NCBI GenBank assembly: GCA_043800555.1
Contig: JAZDMX010000017.1
Span: forward strand, 4,068 to 68,067
DNA length: 64,000 nucleotides
Direction of reading: 5' to 3'
From: Candidatus Omnitrophota bacterium
GTDB taxonomy: Bacteria; Omnitrophota; Gorgyraeia; Gygaellales; Profunditerraquicolaceae
The position numbers and the translations under genes are program-made. The notes under the pieces are model-generated. The model ran no database searches, was not told where the DNA came from, and worked only from the letters and a program-made list of their open reading frames with translations. Shown piece after piece: positions 2,740-52,835 of the stretch (the first letter of the stretch is position 1; the number at the start of each line of letters is the position of its first letter).

Positions 2740-2754
2740 CAGGAAAAGGGGGAT

Positions 2755-2900
2755 GTTTCTAAAAAAAGGGGACGCGGGAATTGGGGACGTTTCTACTTTT
2801 CCAGAGTTTAAAGCCGGAAAAGTAGAAACGTCCCCAATTCCCGTAGAAACGTCCCCCTTTTCGCAATTTCTAGAAAAGCGGAAACGTCCCTTTTTTTTCG
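2755..2900. repeat. Composite, nested copy of the palindromic REP-like element. It carries extra GGGGACG-cgggaatt units.
   Basis: Contains GGGGACGTTTCTACTTTTC ... GAAAAGTAGAAACGTCCCC plus mirrored flanks. Lies immediately upstream of the start of the giant repeat protein. Confidence 0.85.
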
Positions 2901-2940: not shown

Positions 2941-3522
2941 TCATTCCGCCCCAAACATAAACGCGGGTTCGTCGGGGATGGCTTCTTCGGAATTCTTAAA
3001 CGCCCCCCTTAAGGTAATTATTCCTCCGCCTCCTCCTAAAACTACTTCTCCGCCTTTCCTTATGTAAAGCGCCTTATCCGTAACATTATCCGGAGCAATC
3101 AATCCGTAAACGAAATTCTCGGCGGTAACCGTTGAATCCGTCCTCCCGCCGGCTGTAAGCGATTTCGCCTTAAAAACTTCAGACACTTTAGAGATAACTA
3201 CGCCGGCCCCCTGCTTGTCGACAACGGCATCATCCGATGAGCCGGGCACTCCTTTGGGGAACCAATTGCCGGCTTTATCCCAGCTTGCCGCGTCGGCCTT
3301 CCCCGACCACTGCTTCGTATCAGCCCGCGCGCCGCTACAAGAAAAAAATAGCACAAAAATGAATAAACTCAAGGAAAATATGAGAGAAAAGGGGGACGAA
3401 AAAAAGGGGGACGTTTCTACTTTTCTGGCGCTAGATTCGGGAAAAGTAGAAACGTCCCCTTTTTTCCCGTTCTCCTTTTCTCCGCTTCTCTTTTCTCTTG
3501 AGACATCCGCATTTTTCTTCAT
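2941..3522 (-). CDS. Secreted hypothetical protein. Its N-terminal region includes a translated REP-like element, followed by a hydrophobic signal-like segment.
   Basis: The 193-aa ORF has its ATG at 3522, overlapping the stop of the upstream gene in an ATGA arrangement. Hydrophobic stretch SLIFSLSLFIFVLFFSCSGARA. Confidence 0.5.
   Translation of the reverse strand: MKKNADVSREKRSGEKENGKKGDVSTFPESSARKVETSPFFSSPFSLIFSLSLFIFVLFFSCSGARADTKQWSGKADAASWDKAGNWFPKGVPGSSDDAVVDKQGAGVVISKVSEVFKAKSLTAGGRTDSTVTAENFVYGLIAPDNVTDKALYIRKGGEVVLGGGGGIITLRGAFKNSEEAIPDEPAFMFGAE
3387..3467. repeat. REP-like palindromic element, copy 2.
   Basis: GGGGGACG aaaaaaa GGGGGACGTTTCTACTTTTC tggcgctagattcgg GAAAAGTAGAAACGTCCCC with a T-run. 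Confidence 0.9.
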
Positions 3523-4832
3523 GGCCTGACAAATAGCGAAGCTCCGCCAATATCCATTTTCTTTACTTCCAAATAAACCTTGCCATCCAGAATTATTTCA
3601 CCCGAGACGTCATTAAAGCCATAATCATACAGGCCATTATACCCCAAACTCAAAAGGTTAAGGCCTAAATCAGCCGCCAGGCGCGGCCGGGCGGAAAAAA
3701 CTTTATTGCCCTCCGGGTATTCTATGGTATAAGTTTCAATAAGCGGCTGGGCCAAACCGGAAATCTTGGAAAATTGGACCTTAAGCACCCAGGAAGAGCC
3801 CCCGCTTTCGGGCTTTGCCTCCAGGATTAAAGAATCTTTATTATCAATACCGCTTAAATTGTCCAGATAGAGCGCCTTGACCTCCCTGGAATCCGGTATA
3901 GGGAACCTCGCCCCTTCCTTCAGCATAAGATTGCCCGAGCGCATCGGCGCGTTACGCAAAGCGACAAAAGTAATGCTTTGGCGCGTACTGCCGTTTTTGC
4001 TTTGCGCGGTAAAAGCGATTTCTATCGCCGTGATTACGGGTATATCGGAAGTTGCTATGGAGCCTTCCGAACCCAATTCGCTATTTGTATTGTCAAAATA
4101 ACGAAATTTAAAATCCGTGATTTTCACCCCGAAAGGATTTTTATAAACCTCTTTCGAACCGTCTTTATCGTCAATAAATACTGCTTGGGCAAGCGGGTCA
4201 TAGCGAAAAGTTACCAGGCAATCGGCGTCTTTTCCATAATCCGGATAAAAAGTAAAACGCAGGTGGCTGCCGGCAGGCACAGCCATATCCAGCTTGAATT
4301 GAGGGTAGTCTTCGGATTTTCCTTTATCGATGAAGGTGACCGGAACAACCTTGTATTCATTGGATTCGGGCAAAAGCGCCTCGGCAATCGGCAGGCTTGC
4401 GCCGGGTTTAATATGTTTATTTAAGGTATAGGTGTTGACCCCGGTATAGACGTCGTGAGTGTCGTCGGTCCAAGGCATAACCGTAACAACTTTTTCAGAA
4501 GTGCCGTCTACCACTTCCAGCGCGTCGCGAAGCCCGTAAGCGCCGGGAAGCCCTTCCACGAGTTCCTCCATAATCCGCGAAGAAGCCTGCTGCAAAAGAA
4601 GCTGATCCTGGGAAATGTCCCAACTTTCCAAGGCAGTCTTCAGGCTGAAATATAACGCGGCTGTGATTAAAGTGGAAATCGCTACGGCGATAACGAGTTC
4701 AATAAGAGTAAACCCCCTGGAAAAGGGGGACGTTCCCGCGGAAAAGGGGGACGTTTCTACTTTTCTGGCGCTAGATTCGGGAAAAGTAGAAACGTCCCCC
4801 TTTTTCAGCTCGCCTTTTCTTCTCATATCCAT
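3519..4832 (-). CDS. Large prepilin-type N-terminal cleavage/methylation domain protein. Possibly a minor pilin or tip-adhesin-like subunit.
   Basis: The motif SRG|FTLIELVIAVAISTLITAALYF is a class III signal with Glu+5. Total length 437 aa. A 40-aa leader includes the translated REP element. Confidence 0.6.
   Translation of the reverse strand: MDMRRKGELKKGDVSTFPESSARKVETSPFSAGTSPFSRGFTLIELVIAVAISTLITAALYFSLKTALESWDISQDQLLLQQASSRIMEELVEGLPGAYGLRDALEVVDGTSEKVVTVMPWTDDTHDVYTGVNTYTLNKHIKPGASLPIAEALLPESNEYKVVPVTFIDKGKSEDYPQFKLDMAVPAGSHLRFTFYPDYGKDADCLVTFRYDPLAQAVFIDDKDGSKEVYKNPFGVKITDFKFRYFDNTNSELGSEGSIATSDIPVITAIEIAFTAQSKNGSTRQSITFVALRNAPMRSGNLMLKEGARFPIPDSREVKALYLDNLSGIDNKDSLILEAKPESGGSSWVLKVQFSKISGLAQPLIETYTIEYPEGNKVFSARPRLAADLGLNLLSLGYNGLYDYGFNDVSGEIILDGKVYLEVKKMDIGGASLFVRP
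4712..4806. repeat. REP-like palindromic element, copy 3, with an extra partial left arm.
   Basis: GGGGGACGttcccgcggaaaaGGGGGACGTTTCTACTTTTC tggcgctagattcgg GAAAAGTAGAAACGTCCCCC. Confidence 0.9.
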
Positions 4833-5326
4833 ATACTGTCCTCGAACAAAGTAGCCACGGAAGCAACCGGCTTCTTAAGGTTATCGCTGCGGTAAACCTC
4901 CACCCTGACCTCCAAAGGGTCCGTATCGGCAAGAACGCGCCGCAAAACCCTCCACTTGGCCTGGTTCATTTCCAAAGGAGGCTCATCCAGTTTTGGCGTC
5001 CAGAGGTCGCCTATTTTTTTAAGGCCGGGCTTGGTAACATTCAAATTCTGGGTCCTTTCCATTTCCCAGCGCGCCAGGTTTACAGCGGTAATCTCTTCTC
5101 CTGAAACCGTAACGGAATAAAGAGCGCTTGAAAAAAGCTGTATCATCGGTATAAAGAGCACGGCGATAACGACAAGCGCGATGAGGATCTCGATAAAAGT
5201 AAATCCCCGGAAAAAAGGGGACGTTTCTACTTTTCCCGGATCTGGCGCCAGAAAAGTAGAAACGTCCCCTTTTTTCCGGGAAAAGTAGAAACGTCCCCCT
5301 TTTTCTTTTTCGATATCAAAACGCAT
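4823..5326 (-). CDS. Minor pseudopilin, GspI/J- or PilV-like, with a prepilin N-terminus.
   Basis: FRG|FTFIEILIALVVIAVLF. The leader contains a translated REP element. Confidence 0.6.
   Translation of the reverse strand: MRFDIEKEKGGRFYFSRKKGDVSTFLAPDPGKVETSPFFRGFTFIEILIALVVIAVLFIPMIQLFSSALYSVTVSGEEITAVNLARWEMERTQNLNVTKPGLKKIGDLWTPKLDEPPLEMNQAKWRVLRRVLADTDPLEVRVEVYRSDNLKKPVASVATLFEDSIWI
5211..5306. repeat. REP-like palindromic element, copy 4 (1.5 copies: one hairpin plus an extra right arm).
   Basis: GGGGACGTTTCTACTTTTC ccggatctggcgccag AAAAGTAGAAACGTCCCC ttttttccggg AAAAGTAGAAACGTCCCCC. Confidence 0.9.
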
Positions 5327-5720
5327 TATACCTCACTTGAACAGCGCGCTTGACGCCGTTACTGTTACCTATAGAAACTATTGTTGATTGCGAATAATCG
5401 TTATACACTTCAAAAACGCCTCCGTTTAATTTCGTGGGAGGGACTATCATATCAAGTTGTTCTTGTTCATCTACAGGCGCTTCCCCTGCCTGGTTCTTAA
5501 GAGCGCTGACTGCCTTGGCGATCCCGGCTTCGGCTAAATATAACGCTCTTGCCCTATCCAGCTCAATCTGGCTTAAGCTCAACACGTTAAAGAACAAAGC
5601 CATAAGGGTCGCCCCTAAAAGAGAAATCGTAAGGATCACAATCAGGACAATCAATAAAATTGCCCCTTTTTCGGCTTGCGGCTTGCGGCGTATGGTTAGC
5701 GCTAAGCGCTCCATTACCAT
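5316..5720 (-). CDS. GspK/PilX-like minor pseudopilin N-terminal domain protein.
   Basis: EKGAILLIVLIVILTISLLGATLMALF followed by ELDRARALYLAEAGI, resembling the GspK/PilX N-terminal helix. It has no Glu+5. Confidence 0.5.
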   Translation of the reverse strand: MVMERLALTIRRKPQAEKGAILLIVLIVILTISLLGATLMALFFNVLSLSQIELDRARALYLAEAGIAKAVSALKNQAGEAPVDEQEQLDMIVPPTKLNGGVFEVYNDYSQSTIVSIGNSNGVKRAVQVRYNAF

Positions 5721-6259
5721 TCAGAAGGCACCTCGCCTTTGTTTTTTCCCCACTTATCGCTCAAAGGCTCGGTTACATTCACTACCACCTTGGCTTTATC
5801 CGTATAATACGCCCAGCCTCCTGCGCCGGACAGATCCTCGTCGCTCTTAAGGTCTACAAAAGAATTGCTGCCTGCTTTGGAAGAAACCATCTCCAGGGGA
5901 AGTTTGGCTAAGTATGGCTGCTTAACGCCCATATCATCGTAGCTCCTGGTCAAGAGATCAGAAAGCGCCACGGGATATTCCCCTTCTTTGGCGCGGAACA
6001 TCGCGATGCGCGTGCGCAGCGTATTTAAATTGGTGAGTGTGGCCGAAACCTTTGCTTCCGTATCAAAACCAATGAAATTAGGAATAATAGTCGCTGCCAA
6101 TATCGCGATGATAGAAATAACAATTAGAAGCTCAAGCAAAGTGAAGCCCTTAGAAAAGGGGGACGTTTCTACTTTTCTGGCACGAGGCTTGCGAAAAGTA
6201 GAAACGTCCCCCTTTTCCGCGCCCCCTTTTTCCTTCCGGAAAGATAATGCTAACCTCAT
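5714..6259 (-). CDS. gspG: GspG/PulG-like major pseudopilin (type II secretion / type IV pilin-like).
   Basis: SKG|FTLLELLIVISIIAILAATIIPNF is a textbook GspG N-terminus. The 38-aa leader includes a translated REP element. Confidence 0.75.
   Translation of the reverse strand: MRLALSFRKEKGGAEKGDVSTFRKPRARKVETSPFSKGFTLLELLIVISIIAILAATIIPNFIGFDTEAKVSATLTNLNTLRTRIAMFRAKEGEYPVALSDLLTRSYDDMGVKQPYLAKLPLEMVSSKAGSNSFVDLKSDEDLSGAGGWAYYTDKAKVVVNVTEPLSDKWGKNKGEVPSEW
6153..6233. repeat. REP-like palindromic element, copy 5.
   Basis: GGGGGACGTTTCTACTTTTC tggcacgaggcttgc GAAAAGTAGAAACGTCCCCC. Confidence 0.9.
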
Positions 6260-6263
6260 TTTC

Positions 6264-7508
6264 CTACCTCCTGATAACGCTGATTAGATTAAAAATAGGC
6301 AATAAAACAGATAGGGCGATAAAAGCCACAATCGAACCCATTACCAAAAGCATTGCCGGCTCAAGCAGGCTGGTAAGGTTACGCACCGTAAATTCGATTT
6401 CCGGCTCATAAAAAGAGGCTATCTGGTCGAACATCTGGTCAAGCCTCCCTGTGCGCTCTCCCGTGTTAATCAACTGTATAACCATAGGCGGGAATAAACC
6501 CGACGCCTGGAAAGGCTCGGTTAAGCTTTGCCCTTGCGAAATAGCTAACCGGGTGTCTTTAATCATCTTTTGCAGGACAACATTAGGAATAGTATTCTCT
6601 ACCACCGAAAGCGCTTCTAACACCGGGACTCCGGATTTGGTAAGGGCGGCTATAGAACGCGATAAGCGGCTGGTTATGACCTTAAGGGTCAGCGGCCCAA
6701 ACAACGGAAGCCGCAGAAGCAAGAAATCAATGCGGTAGCGGCCCGCCGAAGTCCGGTAATAATTCCTTAAAGCGTTTAGGCCAATGATAGCTGCCAGGCC
6801 GATTAACCACCAGAAATTCCTTACGATATAGCTTAAAGAAAGCAGGGTTTTTGTAGGTAAGGGCAACTTGGCCGAAGAGGCTTCAAATATGGCAACGAAT
6901 TTAGGGAGGACCGCGACCAAAACAAAATTCACGATAACAAAAGCTACCAAGCCCAGCACTATAGGATAAACCAATGCCGAACGGATCCGGCTGCGCAGGT
7001 CAATCTCCTGCGTGCTTAATTCCGCCAGCCTGCTCAAGACCTTATCCAGCATGCCTCCGGCTTCCCCCACTTTGATTAAGCTTACATATAAATTCTCGAA
7101 GATACCGGGGTAGCGGGCAAGCGATTCCGAAAAACTCAATCCCTCCTCTAAAGAAGAAATAATATCTTTTATGACCGACTTAAACCTCGAATTTTGCGTC
7201 TGGCCTAAAACATTTTCCAGGCTTGTAATTAACGGGGCGCCGGTAGAAATAAGGGTGCTTAACTGTCGAGTAAATACAAGCAACTCCTGGCGCGAAACTC
7301 TTCTCACCCAGAAAGGGGAGGGCGTTTCCACTTTTCCCGAGCTTGGCGCCGAAAAAGTGGAAACGCCCTCCCCTTTTTCCGCTATGTCAACCGGGCTAAG
7401 GCCGAGTTTCTCTATTGACAAGGCTGCTTTTGTTTCGTCTTCGGCATCAATGACCCCTTGAGCCAAAGCGCCTTGGGCATCTCTTGCTTTATAGCTAAAG
7501 GTTGTCAT
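6264..7508 (-). CDS. pilC: Type II secretion system protein F / type IV pilus platform protein PilC. A 23-codon REP-like element is inserted in-frame.
   Basis: The N-terminus reads MTTFSYKARDAQGALAQGVIDAEDETKAALSIEKLGLSPV, then the insertion GEGVSTFSAPSSGKVETPSPF, then SRQELLVFTRQLSTLISTGAPL and three TM segments. Confidence 0.85.
   Translation of the reverse strand: MTTFSYKARDAQGALAQGVIDAEDETKAALSIEKLGLSPVDIAEKGEGVSTFSAPSSGKVETPSPFWVRRVSRQELLVFTRQLSTLISTGAPLITSLENVLGQTQNSRFKSVIKDIISSLEEGLSFSESLARYPGIFENLYVSLIKVGEAGGMLDKVLSRLAELSTQEIDLRSRIRSALVYPIVLGLVAFVIVNFVLVAVLPKFVAIFEASSAKLPLPTKTLLSLSYIVRNFWWLIGLAAIIGLNALRNYYRTSAGRYRIDFLLLRLPLFGPLTLKVITSRLSRSIAALTKSGVPVLEALSVVENTIPNVVLQKMIKDTRLAISQGQSLTEPFQASGLFPPMVIQLINTGERTGRLDQMFDQIASFYEPEIEFTVRNLTSLLEPAMLLVMGSIVAFIALSVLLPIFNLISVIRR
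7310..7380. repeat. Variant REP-like palindrome (subfamily) lying in-frame inside pilC.
   Basis: GGGGAGGGCGTTTCCACTTTT cccgagcttggcgccg AAAAAGTGGAAACGCCCTCCCC. The arms differ from the main family but remain perfectly complementary to each other. Confidence 0.8.
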
Positions 7509-9027
7509 AGCCCCAATACTCCTTCAACTTCTTTACCTTATCGTCATATATTTCCGTTTCTATGGATTTTTTTTGCGCTGCCTCTTTGGCCAGGCGTGAT
7601 TCTGCCCGGGCCTGCGCGCGGGCTTGTTCCTGGGCTTGCTGCGCCTTTTCTGCCCTATAAGCCTTAATCATTTCTCTCTCTAACTTAGCCCTTCGACGCG
7701 CTTCTTCCAGCAACGCCTGGTTGACAAGGCTCTTCTTATCCTCTTCCAGCGCTCCCTGCAAACGCTCTTTAAGGTCCTCGTCTTCCTGCAGCCGAAGCGC
7801 CTGGGAACTCTCTTCTTTTGTCAAATTCCTGATTTTGGCAAGTTCGGCCTCGGCCTTGCCGCGCGCTACTTTCCTTATGCGCGCGTTAACAGAGTTCCTC
7901 AATTCCACGGCCTTATCCGCGAATTCCGAATCCGGGTACTTTAATAATATCTTCGCGCACATCTCTTTGGCTAAATTCTGTTCGCCTAAATCGCTATATA
8001 AGGCTGCCGCCTGATAAGCGGACTCCGGCGCCTTTGGGCCGTCGGGAAACTGGGTAACGATACACTCATATATGCTTAAAGCCTGGTTCTTGCGCTGCCA
8101 ATCGTCTTTGTAAAAAGATTCTACGCCGGTGTTTTCCTGGAGGTTTTTAGCTTTTTCAAACAGCTTCGCCTGCACATTGAGGTCCGCCGTGCTCATAATG
8201 TTCACATAGGCTTCCTCTTCATAACGCGTCTTGTTTTCAGCGAGCATCTCCGCGCGCGAAAGCAGGATTTTGGGGGTAATGAAAACCGCCAGCTCCGTCT
8301 GGCTCTTATCGCTGCTTCTGCTGCTAAACAAATATTCTATACCCGGGATATAACCTAATATGGGGATGCGCGACCGCGTGCTGCTATCTTCTTGTTTGAT
8401 AAGCCCGCAGATTACAATAGTCTCGCCCTCTTTGACCCTTACAGTTGTGTCTGCTTCGCGCGTAGTAATGCGCGGCCCGGCGTCCAAAAGAGCGCTTACC
8501 GAAGAAACCTCCGGATGTATCGCCAGGGTAATATAACCATCGGCGTTAATAGACGGAGTTACCCGCAAAGTCGTCCCTACATCAATATATTTGGTGGTTT
8601 CAGTTGTGCCGGTAGTAGTCTGGGTCTTCTCCTTATACGGGACCTTCTCTCCGATAATAATGCGGGCCTCCCGGTTATTTAAAACCGCAATGGACGGAGA
8701 CGCCAATAAATGCGCTTTCTGGTCCTGGATTAAGGCGTCTATGGTAGCGGTAGCGGTCAAGCCGTTTAATACCAGGCTATCCAGCTTAAACTGCCCGCCG
8801 GAAAGGCTTGAGGATGTCCCGGCGAGAGTTTGAGTCATCTTAACAACTTTAGAAGAAGCCGATGGGCTCCAATCCGCGGTCCAGGTAACTCCCAGGTTCT
8901 TTAAATCTTTGGAGGTCATATCCACAATCTTGGCTTCAATAAGCACCTGCCGCGGCGGCTGGTCAACATCCTTAAGCAGCGCTTTTAATTTCTCGATACT
9001 GGCAGGATAATCGGTTACCACAAGCAT
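7495..9027 (-). CDS. pilQ: Secretin (GspD/PilQ family) C-terminal part. It contains the secretin domain plus an unusual ~260-aa TPR (YbgF-like) and charged coiled-coil C-terminal extension.
   Basis: PRQVLIEAKIVDM, ASPSIAVLNNREARIIIGEKVPY, SRIPILGYIPGIEYLF and TELAVFITPKIL. The frame stays open 27 codons upstream of the ATG, to a stop at 9103-9105. Confidence 0.75.
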   Translation of the reverse strand: MLVVTDYPASIEKLKALLKDVDQPPRQVLIEAKIVDMTSKDLKNLGVTWTADWSPSASSKVVKMTQTLAGTSSSLSGGQFKLDSLVLNGLTATATIDALIQDQKAHLLASPSIAVLNNREARIIIGEKVPYKEKTQTTTGTTETTKYIDVGTTLRVTPSINADGYITLAIHPEVSSVSALLDAGPRITTREADTTVRVKEGETIVICGLIKQEDSSTRSRIPILGYIPGIEYLFSSRSSDKSQTELAVFITPKILLSRAEMLAENKTRYEEEAYVNIMSTADLNVQAKLFEKAKNLQENTGVESFYKDDWQRKNQALSIYECIVTQFPDGPKAPESAYQAAALYSDLGEQNLAKEMCAKILLKYPDSEFADKAVELRNSVNARIRKVARGKAEAELAKIRNLTKEESSQALRLQEDEDLKERLQGALEEDKKSLVNQALLEEARRRAKLEREMIKAYRAEKAQQAQEQARAQARAESRLAKEAAQKKSIETEIYDDKVKKLKEYWGYDNL

Positions 9028-9047
9028 ATTGGCTACTTCATCAACTT

Positions 9048-12522: not shown

Positions 12523-12530
12523 AAATTGGG

Positions 12531-12620
12531 CCCGGAAAAAGGGGGACGTTTCTACTTTTCCGGCGCCAGATCCGGGAAAAGTAGAAACGTCCCCCTTTTT
12601 CCAGGCCCCTTTTTTAACCC
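12531..12620. repeat. REP-like palindromic element, copy 7, immediately 3' of the RAYT gene.
   Basis: GGGGGACGTTTCTACTTTTC cggcgccagatccgg GAAAAGTAGAAACGTCCCCC. Confidence 0.9.
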
Positions 12621-13282
12621 CTCGGCCTTCCTATTTTTTTGTTAAAGTTATTTATTTGATAGAACTCTGATAACCCGCGGACAAACGCCTCGCTGCCGAT
12701 GAAAAACTGTTTAGAAATAACCTCTGAATTCACTATGCTGCTATCTACTACAAATTCTATATATAGTTTCGCTCTAGCCTGGAGAGAGCCGGAAAGGCTG
12801 CAATACGCCGGGCTATCGGAAATTACGGCATTTGGCAAACCAAGCGCATAATAACAGTAGCTGCTGAAGCGATACCTTTCAGGCGCTTTAACCAGCCCGG
12901 ACCTTACCGGATTAAGCTCAATATACTTCCCGCATTGCAAAAGATACGAATCGGTATCAATAATATTGCTTTTATACCTGCCCTGCCAGATATGCCCGCT
13001 GTAACCATAAGTCCTTTTGTAATAATTAAAATATAAGAGATTGAGTTGTTTCATAAACTTGGGCAAGTTACTTGTAGCATCCAGCCAAACAATCAAATGG
13101 CTATGGTTACTCATGATACAATAGTGGAATATACTGATATTATTCTCTTTTCTAAGGTTTTTTAGCAGTTCCCAATAGGCATGCTTGTCTTCATCGCACC
13201 TAAAGATACACTGCTGGTTATTTCCTCTAGTCATAATATGCAAAGCCCCATTCCGGGGGATAAGCCTTCTTGTCCTGGGCAT
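12614..13282 (-). CDS. REP-associated tyrosine transposase (RAYT; IS200/IS605 TnpA-like Y1 HuH transposase).
   Basis: HuH motif CIMSNHSHLIV and catalytic-Tyr motif YIELNPVRSGLV, the RAYT signature Y..NPV.AGLV. AGGAGG Shine-Dalgarno sequence upstream. REP copies flank it on both sides. Confidence 0.8.
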   Translation of the reverse strand: MPRTRRLIPRNGALHIMTRGNNQQCIFRCDEDKHAYWELLKNLRKENNISIFHYCIMSNHSHLIVWLDATSNLPKFMKQLNLLYFNYYKRTYGYSGHIWQGRYKSNIIDTDSYLLQCGKYIELNPVRSGLVKAPERYRFSSYCYYALGLPNAVISDSPAYCSLSGSLQARAKLYIEFVVDSSIVNSEVISKQFFIGSEAFVRGLSEFYQINNFNKKIGRPRG

Positions 13283-13357: not shown

Positions 13358-13465
13358 TTGGGGACGCGAAATTGGGGACGCGAAATTGGGGACGTTTCTA
13401 CTTTTCTGGCTTTAGGTTCTAGAAAAGTAGAAACGTCCCCAATTTCGCCCAATTCCGCGTCCTAG
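13358..13465. repeat. REP-like element, copy 8. Extended form with two GGGGACG-cgaaatt units, 5' of the RAYT gene.
   Basis: GGGGACGcgaaattGGGGACGcgaaattGGGGACGTTTCTACTTTTC tggctttaggttctag AAAAGTAGAAACGTCCCC aatttcgcccaattccgCGTCC. Confidence 0.9.
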
Positions 13466-13653: not shown

Positions 13654-13682
13654 CCTCCTATTAAAAGAAAAGCGAAGGAGGC

Positions 13683-13752
13683 AAAAAAAGGGGACGTTTC
13701 TACTTCTCTAACAATCAAGCCCGGGAAAAGTAGGAACGTCCCCTTTTTTTGC
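13683..13752. repeat. REP-like palindromic element, copy 9 (slightly degenerate), 3' of pilB.
   Basis: GGGGACGTTTCTACTTcTC taacaatcaagcccgg GAAAAGTAGgAACGTCCCC. Confidence 0.85.
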
Positions 13753-13764
13753 CTCCCCCTTTGC

Positions 13765-15454: not shown

Positions 15455-15530
15455 AAAACGGGGAAATCGGGGACGTTTCTACTTTTCGGGGCCCGAAAGC
15501 CGGAAAAAGTAGAAACGTCCCCGATTTCTC
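15455..15530. repeat. REP-like palindromic element, copy 10.
   Basis: GGGGACGTTTCTACTTTT cggggcccgaaagccgg AAAAAGTAGAAACGTCCCC. Confidence 0.9.
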
Positions 15531-15533
15531 TCT

Positions 15534-17879
15534 CTATTTATTCTTCAATTCTCTCCACATAAGCTGATTAATGCCTGTCTTACCTGCCCTGCCAAAAGTG
15601 ATTGCCCCTTTTCTGGTTTTTATCTTATACGATGACGACACCAGGATAGTAACCGTTTCCGCCTCTGAATCGGTTACGGAAAGCGTGATCTTTCCATTGG
15701 TGAATCTGGCGGAAGTAGCTGCCAGCGAAGCGCTGCCGTTATCCGAATCCTCAACCGCCTCTACATTTACCGTCAGGCCGCTCTCCGAAGTAATGACGTT
15801 GCCTTCATCATCCACTATCTGGATAGTGACCTCGCCGGTCCCGACAGGCGAGGTAGTGTCAATTACTTCGATAGTGGCGTTTTTCACCGTAATTTTGGAC
15901 GACTCAACGCTCAAAGAGCCTTTTTGAGACTGGGCAACCACGGTATAACTGCCTGCCTGAGCTGGAACAGCTGAAAATGTATGCGCGCCCGCATCTGCGC
16001 CGGTAAAAGTGTACGGCCCCGGCAGGGCCAATCCAATACCCGAGGACAATTCAACAGCTCCGGGGTAATTCGGTATGGGTCCCCCCAGCGCGTCTAAAAC
16101 TTTCACCACCATCTCAATCGGCTCGCCGATATAGAAGAAATCTCGCTCACTGTTGGCGGGAATTACGCTGATTGACATACTCTTGGGTAAAAATACGATG
16201 TCGGGGCTAATCCCGGATTTTGCCGGATCAACCGAATCTTCGGCCTTAAGTTTTATCGTGCCGTAAAGATTATAAGATACATCTGCTTTGGCAATTCCGC
16301 TAAGGAAACTGCTTGCCGCTATCACGGAAGGAGAAAACGATGCCTTAGGAATACTAAGAGGCGTAACCGCTAACGGCAATAAATTAACAGCGCTATTATA
16401 ATTCGGGGTTATTAAGCCCGCGGCATTTAAAGCGGTAACGCTAACCTTAAATGGATTTGAAACAATTTGCGGGCTCTCGGCCGAAACAATAAAGCTTGCC
16501 GGCAGGAATAAAATCTGGCTGCTTGCGCCTGTTTGATCCGAATCTTCGCTATCGGTTGCCGTAATCGTAACCAGGCCGCAATCAGGATATTTCGCCGTGG
16601 TAACCTTAAGGACGCCCTTGACGAAACCCGACACGTTATCAGGCAATATGGGAAAACTACCCTTAGCCGGAGAAATATAATCTAGCGACAGGTTCACGGC
16701 GCCGCCGTAAGATTCATCGGTATTGGCCTTCTCATCCTTGGCGGTAATTATTATATCAAAACTTTGGCCGGCGACCTGCGGCGTAGCGGCTTCAACGGCA
16801 AAACGCGCAAACTTATTCACTATCTCAAATTCCTGCAGGGCGTCGAGATAACCCCGGTCCGGATACTCCCTTACGTTAATTACGGGCCTGCCGGAAGCGG
16901 TATCTTTATAATAAAAGGTTACCTGTTGGGCTGATTTCGGAATAATAATCTGCTCTTGGCTTACCCAGGGGTCCTTATTCAGAGAAAAACTTCCGCTAGT
17001 GGAAGTAGATTTTAGCTCTAAAGTTATATCTGTCGCCGCTGTCTGGGGCGCGGAATCGGAATCCTGCAGTTGAAGGACAATCGGCCCCGAAACCTGGCCC
17101 TGCATTAACTTCTGGGGCGCGCTAATTATCTGCAAACGGTAAATGTAGCTGACTTCTATATCGTCGACATAAGCATTACTCTGCCCGGAAGCCGAATAAG
17201 TGCCGTAAAACTTAAGGTCGCTTAAAGAATTTATGGTATTATCGATAAATCCCAGGTTGGTTTCCAGCGGGCTAAACCCTATATCCGAATTGGGATCGAC
17301 AAAATAAAGATCGTAGGTATGGTTAATGAAATCGAGTTTCATGGACACATCGTACCACTGCCCGGTTACATAGGTAGCTCCGGTATCCACCCAGGAGGAG
17401 CCGTCAGCAACCAGGACATTGCCGGTGAAATCAAAACAAACAGCCCCGACTCCGGATGAGGGCACGCTGGGGGTTTGATTGGAAATCGAAGGACGGATTT
17501 TAAAACGAATCCAGGTAGGCGTATGCCCGCCATATGCAAAAGGCCGGTCCACCACGGGAACGTTGAGCGCCCCAATGAGCTCCACTGAATTGCCTGTTCC
17601 GCCGGGAGTTACTTTAGACTGCGCGATCGCGTTATTTTCCGAACCGCTAAAAACATTCCAGTAATCTGTGCCGTCAATGGTTGCCCCGTCGATAAAATTG
17701 CTGAAATCCTGGAAATATGTGTCAAGGGTAGCTGACTGCGGCAAGCCGCAAAAAGCCTCCGGCGCCCCGCATATTAAGAAAAATATAATAAGTATTGCGC
17801 GGGATAAAAAAAAGGGGGACGTTTCTACTTTTCTGGAAGCTAAAGCCGGAAAAGTAGAAACGTCCCCCTTTTTTCTCAT
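15534..17879 (-). CDS. Large secreted surface protein with a lectin/LamG-like N-terminal region and Ig-like repeats. Its N-terminus is encoded by a REP element, followed by a signal peptide.
   Basis: The 781-aa protein starts MRKKGDVSTF...KVETSPFF, the REP translation, followed by LSRAILIIFFLICGAPEAFC. The sequence is rich in T/S/V/G beta-strand repeats. Confidence 0.55.
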   Translation of the reverse strand: MRKKGDVSTFPALASRKVETSPFFLSRAILIIFFLICGAPEAFCGLPQSATLDTYFQDFSNFIDGATIDGTDYWNVFSGSENNAIAQSKVTPGGTGNSVELIGALNVPVVDRPFAYGGHTPTWIRFKIRPSISNQTPSVPSSGVGAVCFDFTGNVLVADGSSWVDTGATYVTGQWYDVSMKLDFINHTYDLYFVDPNSDIGFSPLETNLGFIDNTINSLSDLKFYGTYSASGQSNAYVDDIEVSYIYRLQIISAPQKLMQGQVSGPIVLQLQDSDSAPQTAATDITLELKSTSTSGSFSLNKDPWVSQEQIIIPKSAQQVTFYYKDTASGRPVINVREYPDRGYLDALQEFEIVNKFARFAVEAATPQVAGQSFDIIITAKDEKANTDESYGGAVNLSLDYISPAKGSFPILPDNVSGFVKGVLKVTTAKYPDCGLVTITATDSEDSDQTGASSQILFLPASFIVSAESPQIVSNPFKVSVTALNAAGLITPNYNSAVNLLPLAVTPLSIPKASFSPSVIAASSFLSGIAKADVSYNLYGTIKLKAEDSVDPAKSGISPDIVFLPKSMSISVIPANSERDFFYIGEPIEMVVKVLDALGGPIPNYPGAVELSSGIGLALPGPYTFTGADAGAHTFSAVPAQAGSYTVVAQSQKGSLSVESSKITVKNATIEVIDTTSPVGTGEVTIQIVDDEGNVITSESGLTVNVEAVEDSDNGSASLAATSARFTNGKITLSVTDSEAETVTILVSSSYKIKTRKGAITFGRAGKTGINQLMWRELKNK
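17806..17876. repeat. REP-like palindromic element, copy 11. It overlaps the start of the 15534..17879 gene.
   Basis: GGGGGACGTTTCTACTTTTC tggaagctaaagccg GAAAAGTAGAAACGTCCCCC. Confidence 0.9.
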
Positions 17880-20924: not shown

Positions 20925-22613
20925 CTATTGTTTTTTCTTGAATTCTCCTTCAAAATAATCGGCCTGCGCGAAATCCCCCTGGCTGTAATAAAAAGCAGCC
21001 AGGTTACGATAGGCGTCGGCATAATCCGGGTTTATTGCGATAGTCTCCTTCCACAGCTTTTCCGCTTCTTCCGGCTTGCCCTGGTTATAATATAGTATCC
21101 CCAGGTTAAAACGGACGTCATCGTAATCCGGATTAACCGCCAATTCCATCTTGTATTCTTCTTCCGCGGCTTCAAGCTCGCCCCGGGAGGCGTAAATCAA
21201 CCCTAAATTATTATGCGCCATCGGCTCAAGCGCGTTAAGCTCCAAGGCCTTTTTGTATTCCGGCTCCGCTTTATCCAGTGAGCCTTCAAGATAATACATC
21301 GCCCCCAAGTTACGGTGGGCAAGCGGCGAATGCGGAGAATTCTTTACGGCGTTTAGCCAGAAACTCAACTTGTCTCTGAAATTCCCGGTGTGAAAAAAGG
21401 TTATGGCCGCGAATAAAATTATAACCGCGGATGCAGCCGTAAAATTCCTCTTTAAGCCAAAATCAAGCTTCTTCATTATATCGGTTTCAAGGAGCAAAAT
21501 AAAAAACCCGGCCAGCGGCATATAAACCCTATGCTCTATGAAATCCGCCGCTATCTTCGGATTCGGCCGGATAAACGAGGGCAATAAGAAAAGCAAAAAC
21601 CAGGCTGCGCCGAAAATGACAAATCCGCGGCGGGCATGTTTTGAGAAAAACAAGGCCGGCGTAATTAACGCCAACGCCAAAATACCGTAAACAAATGTCG
21701 TATCTTGTATCAAGGGGAGCACGGACAGATTAAAAGGGAAAATGATCTTGCCGATAAACTGAATTAAAGCCGGCAGATTCAGCAGCATCGACTTAACCAT
21801 ATTCGCTACGGTCATCGGCATGGGATTATCGCTAAGCGCCACCGAACGCATAAAAAACCAAAGGCCGGATACAGCCAGCCATCCCGCCAGCACAAAAAAA
21901 GGGGACGTTTCTACTTTTCTGGCGCCAAGTTCGGGAAAAGTAGAAACGTCCCCTTTTTTCGAAACGCCCCGCTTTTTCCATATAAGCCAATAATATAGGA
22001 TACACACGGGCATAAGCATTAAAGCCGATTCTTTCGTAAAGAGGGCCAGGCAAAAAAAGAAGATATGCGCCAAACAATACCTGATCTTTTTTGTCTCCAG
22101 GAAATCCAAAAAGAAAATAAATGACGCTAAGCCAAAAAGGGCTAGCAGGGAATCGTTTCTTCCCGGTATCCAGCTTACCGCTTGCGCCAATACGGGATGG
22201 ACGCTAAAAAGCAGGGAGAAAAATAACGCCGGCCTAAAGGGATAGCCCAATTTGGAAAAAAACTTAAAGACCAGGCAGGAAGCCGCCAAATGTATGATGA
22301 TATTAGTCAGGTGGTATATGAACGGGTTTGTGCCGCCGAGCTGCGCGTCAAATAATAACGACACAGTCAGCAGCGGCCGATAATAAGCGGCCGAGCTATG
22401 CAGTATGTGAAAAACCTCGTGCCTGAATGCCTCAAGCACATTGGATAAACGGCTCAAGAAATTGTGGTTATTGATGACTAACGCATTATCGTCAAGGTAG
22501 GTAAACCCAAAAAATAGCGACTTAAAATATACCAGGAGCCCGGCGCCGGATATGAAAACGCAGGCCAACGCCCCCCTTAAAGAAACGGATCCGGGACCGC
22601 TTTTCTTCTTCAT
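20925..22613 (-). CDS. Polytopic membrane protein of the PMT/ArnT-like glycosyltransferase superfamily (GT-C fold) with C-terminal TPR repeats. A REP element is inserted in-frame in a loop.
   Basis: N-terminal GFTYLDDNAL (DD motif) followed by multiple TM segments. The C-terminus carries 4-5 TPRs (AEPEYKKALELNALEPMAHNNLGLIY...). The in-frame insertion reads SKKGDVSTFPELGARKVETSPFF. Confidence 0.55.
   Translation of the reverse strand: MKKKSGPGSVSLRGALACVFISGAGLLVYFKSLFFGFTYLDDNALVINNHNFLSRLSNVLEAFRHEVFHILHSSAAYYRPLLTVSLLFDAQLGGTNPFIYHLTNIIIHLAASCLVFKFFSKLGYPFRPALFFSLLFSVHPVLAQAVSWIPGRNDSLLALFGLASFIFFLDFLETKKIRYCLAHIFFFCLALFTKESALMLMPVCILYYWLIWKKRGVSKKGDVSTFPELGARKVETSPFFVLAGWLAVSGLWFFMRSVALSDNPMPMTVANMVKSMLLNLPALIQFIGKIIFPFNLSVLPLIQDTTFVYGILALALITPALFFSKHARRGFVIFGAAWFLLFLLPSFIRPNPKIAADFIEHRVYMPLAGFFILLLETDIMKKLDFGLKRNFTAASAVIILFAAITFFHTGNFRDKLSFWLNAVKNSPHSPLAHRNLGAMYYLEGSLDKAEPEYKKALELNALEPMAHNNLGLIYASRGELEAAEEEYKMELAVNPDYDDVRFNLGILYYNQGKPEEAEKLWKETIAINPDYADAYRNLAAFYYSQGDFAQADYFEGEFKKKQ
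21894..21959. repeat. REP-like palindromic element, copy 12, lying in-frame (66 nt) inside the 20925..22613 CDS.
   Basis: GGGGACGTTTCTACTTTTC tggcgccaagttcgg GAAAAGTAGAAACGTCCCC. Confidence 0.9.
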
Positions 22614-27614: not shown

Positions 27615-27736
27615 CTCTTATTATTTATCGCAACGGGGTTTTGCCCTCCGCTACGCTTGCTTGATCAGCCTTAACGCTAGAGTTTTTATTATACACAGCA
27701 AACTAATCCCGTCAAGTGGAAAAAAGGGCAAAGAGG

Positions 27737-27802
27737 AAAAGGGGGACGTTTCTACTTTTCTGGCAATCCGGCTCAAGAAAAGTAGAAACGTCCCCCTTTT
27801 CC
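27737..27802. repeat. REP-like palindromic element, copy 13, in the divergent eno/ftsH intergenic region.
   Basis: GGGGGACGTTTCTACTTTTC tggcaatccggctcaa GAAAAGTAGAAACGTCCCCC. Confidence 0.9.
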
Positions 27803-27878
27803 TCCTATTTTCCCTTTGACAGACAGGGAAAGTTGTGATACCTTATTGAAGCAATCTTTAAGAAAGGGACGGTAAAAA

Positions 27879-33010: not shown

Positions 33011-33083
33011 GAAAAAAAGGGGGACGTTTCTACTTTTCTCGGCTTTAGGCTCAAGAAAAGTAGAAACGTCCCCCTTTTTTTTG
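33011..33083. repeat. REP-like palindromic element, copy 14.
   Basis: GGGGGACGTTTCTACTTTTC tcggctttaggctcaa GAAAAGTAGAAACGTCCCCC. Confidence 0.9.
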
Positions 33084-43996: not shown

Positions 43997-44068
43997 AAAA
44001 AAAGGGGGACGTTTCTACTTTTCTAGAACTAAACCCGGAAAAGTAGAAACGTCCCCCTTTTTTTTTAC
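43997..44068. repeat. REP-like palindromic element, copy 15, overlapping the stop of the bla-like gene.
   Basis: GGGGGACGTTTCTACTTTTC tagaactaaacccg GAAAAGTAGAAACGTCCCCC. Confidence 0.9.
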
Positions 44069-44979: not shown

Positions 44980-45223
44980 TTTGGCGGTTAAACGCTTCGA
45001 GGTTAAATACAGCAGAAAAGCGGAGTTGTTAAAAACTCCGCTTTTATATGGCGCCCTTAGCCTAAAAAACGCCAAACTTATACCTGCCAACAATTCGGCT
45101 CAGTTTACCGCCTAGGATTAACGCCCAGGCGTAGCCGGAGCATAAAACATTTTCCATTTAGATTACTACAACCATAACCATAAGTCAACGAAATCTTAAG
45201 GCGGATAGCGCCTTAAGGCTCCT

Positions 45224-45676: not shown

Positions 45677-45715
45677 CTCGTCCTCCTTTTTCCGCCAATT
45701 TGACGATATGCCCCC

Positions 45716-45754
45716 ATAAAACAAAAAAGCCCTTAAAAAGGCTTAAGGGCTTAT
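45716..45754 (-). terminator. Intrinsic terminator hairpin on the minus strand, about 40 nt upstream of the 45676 gene start.
   Basis: AAGCCCTTAAgcctttTTAAGGGCTTTTTTGTTTT when read on the minus strand. Confidence 0.5.
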
Positions 45755-45982
45755 AGAATTCTTCCCTCTTTGGTAACGCAGCCTCTCCGTTATTAAACGG
45801 AGACTGTCGCTTTGCGTCCCAAGGTTACCCTTGGTTTGCCTTTATCAGTAGGTGCTCAAAATGTCAAACGCCCGGCTTAAACCGCAATAGGCATTAAAAC
45901 CAAGCCGGTACATCAAACTCCTTGCTTCATAATGAAGTATAACATATTTCTTGCTAATTTGCCAAGACCAAACGGAATAAAA

Positions 45983-52611: not shown

Positions 52612-52747
52612 TAACAGTTTGCTTAACTTTTTCTGAATGCGGGGTAAGCCCGGGCATATAAGTTGTACGCCTTATCTAAAACAATAACGCCAGGACTAGT
52701 TTATTTGCTTATTATAACATTAAAAACCAGAAAAAAAGAGCGGTTTC

Positions 52748-52835
52748 CTGAAAAAGGGGGACGTTTCTACTTTTCCTGAACTTGATGCTAGAAAAGCAGA
52801 AACGCCCCCTTTTTTTCAGGAACGTCCTTCTTTTT
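52748..52835. repeat. REP-like palindromic element, copy 16 (slightly divergent, with extended TCCTGAAAAA / TTTTTCAGGA flanks).
   Basis: GGGGGACGTTTCTACTTTTC ctgaacttgatgcta GAAAAGcAGAAACGcCCCC. Confidence 0.85.

What the first reader, a model, noticed from the sequence alone, without database searches (positions are those of the whole stretch)
7310..7380. REP-like element inserted in-frame inside the PilC/GspF platform gene
The pilC ORF stays open across a 69-72 nt palindrome, which translates to GEGVSTFSAPSSGKVETPSPF. The insertion lies exactly between the conserved N-terminal KARD...G...EA...L...G segment and the first cytoplasmic domain (LLVFTRQLSTLIS). PilC proteins from other bacteria are contiguous at this point. 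The situation parallels Rickettsia palindromic elements, which also insert in-frame into essential genes.
Basis: seen in the sequence. Interest (0 to 1): 0.75.

Follow-up and report, generated by a model that had tools for sequence, protein, structure and literature searches.

The report
Mobile palindrome inside a pilus gene
A 65-base hairpin-forming repeat sits in-frame inside the pilus/secretion platform gene of an uncultured Omnitrophota bacterium, in a floppy linker, and it belongs to a mobile repeat family whose likely transposase gene lies 5 kb away; this kind of insertion is already known from other bacteria.

Summary
The gspF/pilC gene (6264-7508, minus strand, 414 aa) stays open across a palindrome at 7312-7376 with a perfect 24-bp stem.

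The palindrome is a diverged copy of a family with 16 hairpin doublets in this 64-kb window. A Y1/HUH transposase gene related to REP-associated tyrosine transposases (RAYTs) lies at 12614-13282 and is flanked on both sides by family copies. The same arrangement recurs in other Omnitrophota genomes. The element is therefore best read as a REPIN-like doublet of a REP/RAYT system.

It encodes residues 44-66, in the linker between the T2SSF_N domain and the first T2SSF domain. AlphaFold2 gives pLDDT below 50 only for residues 47-67. Orthologs are not contiguous here. They carry a variable 13-22 aa linker, which the element replaces, for a net gain of about 10 aa.

One related metagenome contig carries the palindrome at the same site. 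All other listed homologs lack it.

Seven further copies lie in-frame in other ORFs, all in the same reading frame. They occupy prepilin leaders, signal-peptide N-regions and a membrane-protein loop. Stem symmetry is kept by mirrored changes.

In-frame REP doublets are already documented, so this is a new member of a known kind. Interest is moderate.

The parts
7312..7376 (.). Diverged REPIN-like palindrome inside gspF/pilC. It encodes residues about 44-66 (EKGEGVSTFSAPSSGKVETPSPF).
   Evidence: It differs from the window consensus by 2 substitutions plus a 2-nt indel per arm, all mirrored.
6264..7508 (-). gspF/pilC platform gene, 414 aa, intact.
   Evidence: It is 89% identical to its closest orthologs outside the linker.
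12614..13282 (-). RAYT-like Y1/HUH transposase, 222 aa, with HUH motif NHSHLIV and catalytic Tyr in GKYIELNPV.
   Evidence: Pfam Y1_Tnp E=1e-13. NCBIfam REP_Tyr_transpos 66 bits, E=2.6e-18, below the 80-bit cutoff. A family profile hits only E. coli TnpA-REP 4er8 in the PDB, E=0.0036.
13380..13448 (.). REPIN immediately upstream of the RAYT gene.
12523..12613 (.). REPIN immediately downstream of the RAYT stop codon.
6153..6217 (.). REPIN in-frame in the leader peptide of prepilin G1 (gene 5714-6259). The leader is 38 aa.
   Evidence: There is no in-frame start codon between the element and the KG|FTLLE cleavage motif.
5206..5305 (.). REP singlet plus REPIN in-frame in the leader of prepilin G3 (gene 4823-5326). 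The leader is 41 aa.
   Evidence: A >=90%-identical ortholog, P0363, has a 5-aa leader MRSRG|FTF. L002 provides the empty site.
4717..4808 (.). REPIN plus a partial arm in-frame in the leader of prepilin G4 (gene 3519-4832).
3384..3482 (.). REPIN in-frame in the N-region of the signal peptide of ORF 2941-3522.
2743..2890 (.). Cluster of one REPIN plus extra arms, at or in the N-terminus of a large ORF that runs off the window start. The start codon is ambiguous.
17808..17874 (.). REPIN in-frame directly after the start codon of the DUF6701 protein (gene 15534-17879).
21895..21959 (.). REPIN in-frame in a loop between predicted transmembrane segments (about aa 218-240) of the PMT_2/TPR glycosyltransferase-like protein (gene 20925-22613).
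   Evidence: Orthologs show a short degenerate remnant or nothing at this point.
13677..13756 (.). Intergenic REPIN just downstream of the pilB/T2SSE gene.
15463..15528 (.). Intergenic REPIN.
27733..27804 (.). Intergenic REPIN.
33012..33081 (.). Intergenic REPIN.
43997..44064 (.). Intergenic REPIN abutting the stop codon of ORF 44065-45093.
52727..52820 (.). Intergenic REPIN with one diverged arm.

Best explanation
The palindrome is an old copy of a REPIN-like element. It consists of two inverted 20-25-nt REP arms (consensus A-run GGGGGACGTTTCTACTTTTC, about 15-nt spacer, GAAAAGTAGAAACGTCCCCC T-run) that fold into one hairpin. The family belongs to a REP/RAYT system of Candidatus Omnitrophota.

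Inferred by analogy with IS200/IS605 and RAYT enzymes: the Y1/HUH transposase at 12614-13282 recognises the arms as single-stranded DNA hairpins and disperses the doublets.

Shown here: one copy lies in the gspF segment that encodes the linker between the T2SSF_N domain and the first cytoplasmic T2SSF domain, and it replaces the native 13-aa linker.

It persists for three reasons. The reading frame is kept. The frame used gives a hydrophilic peptide without stops (KGDVSTF-x6-KVETSPF type). The linker is intrinsically variable and unstructured. The protein effect is thus most likely a neutral linker extension of about 10 aa.

The same filter explains the other in-frame copies, which sit in cleaved prepilin leaders, signal-peptide N-regions and a loop between transmembrane segments. 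These segments are expected to be cytoplasmic, by the positive-inside rule for the loop and by known prepilin and signal-peptide topology for the others; topology was not predicted here.

Hairpin symmetry is actively preserved through mirrored changes. The cause is not resolved: a constraint on ssDNA hairpin recognition, correction between the two arms, or both.
For: - Family: 16 doublets in 64 kb and 38 arm matches against 3.3 expected.
- RAYT link in the window: Y1_Tnp E=1e-13; REP_Tyr_transpos E=2.6e-18; the family profile hits only E. coli TnpA-REP 4er8; the gene is flanked by REPINs on both sides.
- RAYT link elsewhere: orthologous RAYT genes in L001, L091, L092 and L093 are flanked by inverted REP arms, and in L001, L092 and L093 the REP TAG supplies the stop codon.
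- Distribution: at least 88 REPIN stretches in about 25 MAGs, nearly all labelled Omnitrophota. 803 RAYT homologs were found; the listed ones that carry a name are all Omnitrophota or 'putative transposase', and nearly all sit on one or two contigs.
- Extragenic bias: 8 of 16 copies lie in the roughly 9% of the window that is non-coding.
- Linker context: orthologs have variable 13-22 aa linkers. AlphaFold2 gives mean pLDDT 82.9 with the only stretch below 50 at residues 47-67. Solved first cytoplasmic domains start at query residue about 68-71.
- gspF is under purifying selection: 89% aa identity against 63% identity at 4-fold degenerate sites.
- Reading frame: all 8 in-ORF copies have the same 47-nt core and the same frame.
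- Mirrored evolution: 11 of 23 stem pairs show changes on both sides, 95.8% of cells are paired, and 0 of 500 shuffles reach this. Arm-variant pairs are TAT/TAT 89, TAC/TAC 14, CAC/CAC 1 and mixed 1.
- Precedent: intragenic REP dimers encoding 20-30 aa are published (PMC3733652).
Against: - The RAYT scores below NCBIfam's equivalog cutoff (66 versus 80 bits), and no transposition has been shown.
- A single arm is not itself a clear stem-loop, unlike classical REPs. The GTAG motif is ATAG in most genomes and GTGG in the gspF copy.
- The event is not a simple insertion. The native linker is gone and no target-site duplication is evident.
- The history is not parsimonious. L001 and L002 are sisters (4-fold identity 0.83 versus 0.63 to the window), yet the window and L001 are filled and L002 is empty.
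- Perfect stems in old copies argue against a purely neutral passenger at the nucleic-acid level.
- Only 64 kb of the source genome could be examined.
Confidence: 0.85

Rival explanations
1. The hairpin has been co-opted as an RNA element. It would act inside the polycistronic pilus/secretion mRNA as a processing site for a double-strand-specific RNase, a stability element or a translation pause. On this view its position in gspF and at the 5' ends of the pilin cistrons is selected, not merely tolerated. This is compatible with a REPIN origin.
For: - The RNA stem is a perfect 24 bp at -54 kcal/mol.
- Stems remain perfect in diverged orthologous copies, while the loops of the two gspF copies are only 7/17 identical.
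- Copies sit at nearly every cistron start in an operon with overlapping genes.
- Three unrelated palindrome families occupy prepilin leaders in three genomes.
- REPs are hypothesised to stabilise mRNA and terminate transcription (abstract of PMC3733652).
Against: - Close relatives function without the elements: L002, P0363 with a 5-aa leader, and P0003-P0009.
- G-U pairs are almost absent among stem variants, which points to DNA-level symmetry rather than RNA selection.
- There are no expression data.
- No Rfam family matches the elements.
Confidence: 0.12
2. The pilus/secretion cluster of this MAG is decaying, and the repeats accumulate because selection on these genes is relaxed. The gspF copy would then be damage in a dying gene.
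For: - The secretin gene is split by a 1-nt frameshift and lacks most of the repeat tail present in L001.
- Four or five very recent copies with exact consensus arms cluster in the pilin genes.
Against: - All 8 in-ORF copies are in-frame and free of stops. Under no selection, each insertion would keep the frame with probability at most 1/3.
- gspF shows 89% aa identity against 63% at 4-fold sites, and all family-invariant residues are kept.
- The gspF copy is shared with L001, whose cluster has an intact 1102-aa secretin.
- The frameshift may be a MAG assembly error.
Confidence: 0.07
3. The repeat is a conventional MITE mobilised by a DDE transposase through terminal inverted repeats, or a DNA-uptake-signal-like motif. 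Its proximity to the Y1 transposase would be coincidental.
For: - The element consists essentially of two inverted arms, like the terminal inverted repeats of a MITE.
- The copy density of one per 4 kb, with many copies inside genes, resembles uptake signal sequences (own knowledge of Neisseria DUS and Haemophilus USS).
Against: - No target-site duplication and no internal sequence beyond a spacer of about 15 nt.
- Flanking of the Y1 gene by inverted arms is conserved in five genomes, and the arm variant changes from genome to genome along with the adjacent RAYT gene: GGGGACGTTTC, GGGGACGGTTC, GGGGACGCTTC.
- Arms occur almost only as fixed-spacing inverted doublets.
Confidence: 0.04
4. The palindrome is a native linker sequence that is palindromic by chance or for protein-level reasons.
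For: The linker is variable, so any sequence could drift there.
Against: - The same arms occur about 30 times in the window.
- 118 of 120 listed homologs lack both the peptide and the palindrome.
- Folding z-scores are -7 to -8.
Confidence: 0.01

Closest known systems
REPIN/RAYT systems (REP doublets dispersed by REP-associated tyrosine transposases; Bertels & Rainey 2011, PMC3116915; Nunvar 2010; Ton-Hoang 2012)
   Same: - Short repeats organised as inverted doublets that form one hairpin.
- High copy number.
- A Y1/HUH transposase gene flanked by the repeats in inverted orientation.
- An orthologous transposase at the same position of the cluster in a related genome.
- Enrichment in extragenic space.
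- Arms that co-vary.
   Different: - Different phylum: the published cases I read are mainly Proteobacteria.
- Single arms lack a clear internal stem-loop.
- GTAG is not conserved.
- The RAYT is 222 aa with a C-terminal extension and scores below the NCBIfam equivalog cutoff.
- Half of the copies in this window lie inside ORFs, against 14 of 1067 in P. fluorescens SBW25.
Intragenic GTAG/CGTC REPs (Di Nocera et al. 2013, PMC3733652), most numerous in Opitutus terrae and Rickettsia conorii
   Same: - REP dimers inserted in-frame that encode 20-30 aa.
- Often at N-termini or in flexible linkers and loops.
- REP termini supply TAG stop codons.
- Replication and repair genes are hit; here PriA in L014 and L069.
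   Different: The targets differ: here pilus/secretion genes, namely the GspF linker, prepilin leaders and signal-peptide N-regions. The sequence family is different.
Rickettsia palindromic elements (RPE; Ogata et al. 2000, 2002; reviewed in PMC10969869)
   Same: Palindromic repeats inserted in-frame into functional genes, at positions compatible with the protein fold, with about half of the copies in ORFs.
   Different: - RPE-1 type elements are about 100-150 bp and encode 30-50 aa (own knowledge; the review PMC10969869 gives about 150 bp).
- They are alphaproteobacterial.
- No transposase has been linked to them to my knowledge (own knowledge).
- There is no sequence similarity to the family here.
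IS200/IS605 TnpA (Y1 HUH transposases)
   Same: The Pfam Y1_Tnp fold family, the HUH motif and the catalytic Tyr.
   Different: The gene is not carried inside a mobile insertion sequence with subterminal hairpins. It lies at the same position of the cluster in two genomes, and the family profile hits TnpA-REP rather than IS200/IS605 TnpA structures.

Membership tests
REP/REPIN-RAYT system | A short repeat present in many copies per genome, far above chance. | tested here: met
   16 doublets and about 33 arms in 64 kb. 38 matches against 3.3 +/- 1.9 expected.
REP/REPIN-RAYT system | Repeats organised as inverted doublets that fold into one hairpin (the REPIN form). | tested here: met
   Arms of 24-42 nt with 13-18 nt between them. 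Fold z-scores of -7 to -8. 95.8% of stem cells are paired over 32 copies.
REP/REPIN-RAYT system | A Y1/HUH tyrosine transposase gene flanked by the repeats in inverted orientation. | tested here: met
   Window gene 12614-13282 has REPINs at 13380-13448 and 12523-12613. The same holds in L001, L091, L092 and L093.
REP/REPIN-RAYT system | The transposase qualifies as a RAYT by curated model. | tested here: inconclusive
   NF047646 REP_Tyr_transpos is the only NCBIfam hit (E=2.6e-18) but scores 66 bits against a cutoff of 80. The family profile hits only TnpA-REP 4er8, E=0.0036. The HUH motif and the Tyr are invariant.
REP/REPIN-RAYT system | The RAYT is single-copy per genome and vertically inherited. 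| not testable with these tools
   One copy in the window, and an orthologous copy at the same position of the cluster in L001. L092 has two Y1_Tnp genes within 1.7 kb.
REP/REPIN-RAYT system | Predominantly extragenic placement. | tested here: inconclusive
   8 of 16 copies lie in the roughly 9% non-coding space, a strong enrichment. The other 8 lie inside ORFs.
REP/REPIN-RAYT system | Each REP unit is itself an imperfect palindrome tagged by a terminal GTAG. | tested here: not met
   A single arm has no convincing internal stem; GAAAAG/CTTTTC is absent in some copies. GTAG is present in the window consensus, but it is ATAG in 89 of 105 copies elsewhere and GTGG in the gspF copy.
Rickettsia palindromic elements (RPE) | Sequence membership in an RPE family, with a Rickettsia host. 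| tested here: not met
   The host is Candidatus Omnitrophota. The element is 65-70 nt with unrelated sequence. Only the behaviour (in-frame, position compatible with the fold) is shared.
MITE (DDE-type) | Terminal inverted repeats plus a target-site duplication, and a cognate insertion sequence. | tested here: not met
   No duplication at filled versus empty sites for gspF and prepilin G3. No cognate DDE insertion sequence is seen in the window (and the Pfam scans).
T2SSF / GspF / PilC platform protein (host gene) | T2SSF_N domain plus two T2SSF domains, full length, with conserved residues. | tested here: met
   Pfam T2SSF with 2 stretches. T2SSF_N is precomputed for this protein (P0001). 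It aligns with M. xanthus PilC 3jc8 over residues 4-412. Family-invariant columns are kept.

The most novel reading that the evidence does not exclude
Omnitrophota REPINs may be 'coding-competent' mobile hairpins. Their A-run, arm, spacer, arm, T-run layout reads in one frame as a Lys-rich hydrophilic peptide, which would let them colonise cleaved leader peptides and linkers expected to face the cytoplasm. On this reading they return to, or are maintained at, fixed hot spots: the gspF linker in two non-sister lineages and PriA in genomes only 54% identical. They would also be kept as perfect hairpins inside coding sequence because the host uses them, for example as internal processing or stability elements of the gene-dense pilus operon. 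That would make them exapted elements rather than passengers.
Probability: 0.15. Interest if true: 0.7.

Novelty: new member of a known kind. Interest (0 to 1): 0.45.

Why it matters
It adds an uncultured, gene-dense phylum to the short list of lineages where REP-type hairpins live inside functional genes. Unlike the Rickettsia elements, a candidate transposase can be named here.

It shows which protein segments tolerate a 22-codon hairpin module: cleaved prepilin leaders (stretched to 38-41 aa, beyond the 6-26 aa range given in PMC4471445), signal-peptide N-regions, a loop between transmembrane segments, and the GspF inter-domain linker.

For annotators, it explains odd N-terminal extensions and 'KGDVSTF...KVETSPF' motifs in Omnitrophota proteins, and it explains why RAYT genes sit on very short contigs.

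For REPIN biology, the perfect stems in diverged coding copies offer a natural test of whether hairpin symmetry is kept by selection or by correction between the two arms.

Tried and rejected
- Rfam gathering search of the whole window: no family covers any element.
- Terminator scan: uninformative, because its loop limit of 3-8 nt excludes these hairpins.
It cannot say whether a CAC/GTG subfamily exists.
- Three attempts to fetch more of the source contig by exact protein look-up: failed, because the MAG is not in that index.
- A simple '23-aa insertion' model: rejected, because the native linker is missing.
- A single ancestral insertion shared by the window and L001: rejected as the simple answer, because L001 is sister to the empty L002.
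- Alternative downstream start codons for the prepilins: rejected, because no ATG, GTG or TTG lies in-frame between the element and the G|FT cleavage motif.
- Family B palindromes of L001: searched in the window, absent.
Full report
**1. The observation**

The minus-strand ORF 6264-7508 encodes a 414-aa T2SSF/GspF/PilC protein. It matches Pfam T2SSF at E=5e-57 with two stretches and TIGR02120 GspF at E=1.7e-117. It is 100% identical to NCBI MFH0855792.1 from a Candidatus Omnitrophota MAG.

The ORF reads ...LSPVDIAEKGEGVSTFSAPSSGKVETPSPFWVRRVSRQELLVFTRQL... across an inverted repeat with arms at 7312-7342 and 7346-7376. The repeat folds with a perfect 24-bp stem. The energy is -31.6 kcal/mol as DNA (z = -7.2) and -54.3 kcal/mol as RNA (z = -8.3), and no shuffle out of 200 folds as well.

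**2. The palindrome is one of a family**

The arm core recurs 38 times in the window at up to 3 mismatches, against 3.3 expected by chance. The arms pair up into 16 hairpin doublets.

- Consensus: an A-run, GGGG(G)ACGTTTCTACTTTTC, a spacer of about 13-15 nt, GAAAAGTAGAAACGTC(C)CCCC, then a T-run.
- Spacers fall into two related types, one containing GGCGCC and one containing GGCTTTA, and both orientations occur.
- The gspF copy is the most diverged. Against the window consensus it carries A>G, T>C and a 2-nt indel in one arm, and each change is mirrored in the other arm.
- No Rfam family covers the elements.

**3. A transposase is attached to the family**

ORF 12614-13282 (222 aa) is a Y1/HUH transposase.

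- Pfam Y1_Tnp matches at E=1e-13.
- Its only NCBIfam hit is REP_Tyr_transpos, at E=2.6e-18 and 66 bits, below the 80-bit equivalog cutoff.
- A profile of 25 homologs hits exactly one PDB sequence at E <= 0.01: E. coli TnpA-REP 4er8, at E=0.0036. IS200/IS605 TnpA structures do not reach that threshold.
- The HUH histidines (NHSHLIV) and the Tyr of GKYIELNPV are invariant in the family.

The gene is flanked by REPINs directly upstream (13380-13448) and downstream (12523-12613).

The orthologous gene in the related contig L001 occupies the same position of the cluster. There the REP's GTAG supplies its stop codon. In three further Omnitrophota genomes (L091-L093) the homolog is again bracketed by inverted arms. 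The arm variant differs from genome to genome, changing together with the adjacent RAYT gene: GGGGACGTTTC, GGGGACGGTTC, GGGGACGCTTC.

Homologs number 803. Those in the listed top 120 that carry a source name are all called Omnitrophota 'transposase' or 'putative transposase', and nearly all are seen on one or two contigs, often very short ones. Short contigs are expected for a gene embedded in repeats that break assemblies (inference).

A genome scan for the doublet pattern found at least 88 stretches in about 25 MAGs, nearly all labelled Omnitrophota.

These are the defining traits of a REP/RAYT system with REPIN-type doublets (PMC3116915, PMC5581495). There are exceptions:

- A single arm has no clear internal stem-loop.
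- GTAG is not conserved.
- Half of the window copies are not extragenic.

**4. Where the gspF copy sits in the protein**

I aligned the protein with 28 homologs. All of them have a poorly conserved 13-22 aa linker between the N-terminal beta-beta-alpha-beta domain (T2SSF_N) and the first helical T2SSF domain. A motif and linker scan of all 120 listed homologs gave the same picture for those it printed. An example is SLNTGFDVGGLMK in P0005.

In the window that linker is replaced by EKGEGVSTFSAPSSGKVETPSP. The protein is 414 aa against 404-406 aa for most orthologs. The alignment to M. xanthus PilC (3jc8) shows an 11-residue gap at this point. Crystallised first cytoplasmic domains begin at query residue about 68-71.

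AlphaFold2 (29-sequence alignment, mean pLDDT 82.9) gives one segment below pLDDT 50, residues 47-67. That is exactly the element-coded stretch, and it is predicted as coil. The insert is therefore a disordered inter-domain linker. The statement that PilC proteins are 'contiguous at this point' is wrong, and the net gain is about 10 residues, not 23.

**5. Related genomes**

Among 120 listed homologs only P0002 shares the peptide (KGDVSIFLSVNEGKIETSPFF). P0002 is 86% identical and comes from JGI contig L001.

Its DNA is a perfect palindrome with 28-nt arms. It lies at the same boundaries and carries its own mirrored variant, CTAT/ATAG.

L002 (P0005) is an empty site with the ancestral-type linker.

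No such ortholog was found, so the test is not met.

The history is not simple. Identity at 4-fold degenerate sites in gspF is 0.83 for L001-L002 but 0.63 for window-L001 and window-L002. The same ranking holds across the 4-kb syntenic region. L001 and L002 are therefore sisters, yet the element is in the window and L001, and in both the native linker is gone.

This needs one of two explanations: recurrent insertion with linker loss at a hot spot, or allelic recombination. I could not decide between them.

L001's spacer shares the 8-mer TGTCGGTG with L002's native linker. This is unexplained.

**6. Other in-frame copies**

Eight of the 16 doublets lie in the roughly 9% of the window that is non-coding. 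That is a strong extragenic bias. The other eight lie inside ORFs:

| Host ORF | Location of the element |
|---|---|
| gspF (6264-7508) | inter-domain linker |
| PMT_2/TPR protein (20925-22613) | loop after ...WKKRGVSKK; orthologs have a shorter degenerate remnant or nothing |
| Prepilin G1 (5714-6259) | leader peptide, 38 aa |
| Prepilin G3 (4823-5326) | leader peptide, 41 aa |
| Prepilin G4 (3519-4832) | leader peptide, 40 aa |
| ORF 2941-3522 | N-region of a signal peptide |
| DUF6701 protein (15534-17879) | N-region of a signal peptide |
| Large ORF at the window start | N-terminus; start codon ambiguous |

For the three prepilins, no ATG, GTG or TTG lies in-frame between the element and the conserved (K/R)G|FT(L/F)(I/L)E cleavage motif. 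The upstream ATGs coincide with the orthologous starts in L002. The element must therefore be translated as part of the leader. NCBI's annotation includes these N-termini for G1, G3, ORF 2941-3522, the DUF6701 protein and GspF. My 437-aa G4 ORF is not in that collection.

The leaders become 38-41 aa, against the usual 6-26 aa (PMC4471445). A >=90%-identical ortholog of G3 has a 5-aa leader, MRSRG|FTF, so these insertions are recent. Their arms match the consensus exactly.

All in-ORF copies have the same 47-nt core and are read in the same frame, KGDVSTF...KVETSPF. One of the three frames contains TAG, and the third is hydrophobic.

All eight positions are segments that are cleaved off or are likely unstructured; AlphaFold2 confirmed this only for the gspF linker. 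They are expected to face the cytoplasm, by known prepilin and signal-peptide topology and by the positive-inside rule for the loop, though topology was not predicted here.

All eight preserve the frame. This argues for continuing selection on these genes, despite a 1-nt frameshift in the secretin gene.

**7. Other genomes**

Mid-protein, same-frame copies recur elsewhere. The clearest case is PriA. Orthologs in L014 and L069 are only 54% identical, yet each has a perfect REPIN at the same position. Each carries the arm variant of its own genome, GGGGACG versus GGGACCG.

Prepilin leaders in other genomes host unrelated palindromes:

- A CGGTTAG-heptamer family in L001.
- A GGTTCTG-heptamer family in L019.

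Leader-coding DNA thus appears to be a general landing or retention site for hairpin repeats in this phylum.

**8. Hairpin symmetry**

I counted pairs on 32 distinct doublets from more than 20 genomes.

| Measure | Observed | Control |
|---|---|---|
| Stem cells paired | 95.8% | 87.6 +/- 0.6% in shuffles |
| Pairs with changes on both sides | 11 of 23 | 7.0 +/- 1.0 in shuffles |
| Cells with changes on both sides | 60 | 16.7 +/- 3.1 in shuffles (0 of 500 reach the observed value) |
| Covariation score | 0.242 | at most 0.117 with slid partners |

G-U pairs are almost absent. The covarying columns include flanks that were outside the search pattern.

Over 105 doublets, the arm-variant pairs are TAT/TAT 89, TAC/TAC 14, CAC/CAC 1 (the gspF copy) and mixed 1.

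Symmetry at the DNA level is therefore a property of the family. It persists in the coding copies even where the spacers have diverged: the two gspF copies share 7 of 17 spacer positions. I infer a constraint on ssDNA hairpin recognition, correction between the two arms, or both. Selection on RNA structure is less favoured because G-U intermediates are lacking.

**9. Comparison with known elements, and verdict**

In-frame REP dimers that encode 20-30 aa are documented. They are often found at N-termini or in flexible linkers, they can supply TAG stops, and they hit replication and repair genes. Opitutus terrae and Rickettsia conorii are the extreme cases (PMC3733652). RPEs are the classic analogue (PMC10969869).

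No paper in the library combines prepilin leaders with REPs. None describes palindromic repeats in Omnitrophota.

The finding is real and the interpretation essentially right. It is a new member of a known kind, with three modestly new aspects: the phylum, the pilus-gene and leader-peptide targets, and the named candidate transposase. Interest is 0.45.

**10. Limits**

- Only 64 kb of the source genome was visible.
- No transposition, expression or protein data exist.
- The RAYT assignment rests on sequence and genomic context.
- The insertion history at gspF is unresolved.

Noticed in passing
window 3519-6259 (prepilin genes G1, G3, G4); L001:11250-14060; L019 (minus strand, two prepilins): Prepilin leader peptides host palindromic repeats of three unrelated families in three Omnitrophota genomes. 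In the window this stretches the leaders to 38-41 aa, while a >=90%-identical ortholog of G3 has a 5-aa leader.
   Followed up: partly
window 7495-9521 (around 9030-9047): The secretin gene is split by a 1-nt frameshift (AAGGTC has become AAGTC relative to L001). It also lacks most of the roughly 440-aa Ala/Lys/Glu repeat tail of L001's 1102-aa secretin. This is either a pseudogene or a MAG assembly error.
   Followed up: partly
L014:594-636 and L069:4891-4933: PriA orthologs only 54% identical each carry a perfect REPIN in-frame at the same position, and each uses its own genome's arm variant. This suggests an insertion hot spot or concerted maintenance.
   Followed up: partly
window gspF 7312-7376 versus L001:10127-10197 and L002:36-1250: The element is present in the window and in L001 but absent in L002, although L001 and L002 are sisters by 4-fold-site identity. 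L001's spacer shares TGTCGGTG with L002's native linker.
   Followed up: partly
window 20925-22613: The PMT_2/TPR membrane protein carries a REPIN in a loop between predicted transmembrane segments. Orthologs P0122 and P0123 show a shorter degenerate remnant (KKGEIS-RHRNIPLF), and P0124 shows nothing.
   Followed up: partly
window 45768-45849 (minus strand): A c-di-GMP-I-GGC riboswitch match (62.3 bits, gathering score 59) lies upstream of ORF 45224-45724. tRNA genes lie at 25863, 32804 and 46238.
   Followed up: no
L067, L075; L007, L009, L015, L017, L018, L024, L028, L033, L048, L061: The REPIN pattern also occurs in two MAGs labelled Candidatus Aminicenantes and in several TPA bins labelled 'uncultured Planctomycetales'. 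This could reflect mislabelling, mis-binning or horizontal spread.
   Followed up: no
L092:4001-6373: Two Y1_Tnp genes lie within 1.7 kb in one Omnitrophota genome, separated by an RHH/Fic pair. This is at odds with strict single-copy RAYT behaviour.
   Followed up: no
junctions of in-frame copies (window 5206-5305 versus L002:2097-2140; L014:560-600): In the junctions checked (prepilin G3, PriA, the PMT_2 protein), in-frame copies follow native A-rich+GG codons (Lys-Lys-Gly, for example GAAAAAGG). This hints at a target preference, or at microhomology with the element's A-run+GGGG end.
   Followed up: no
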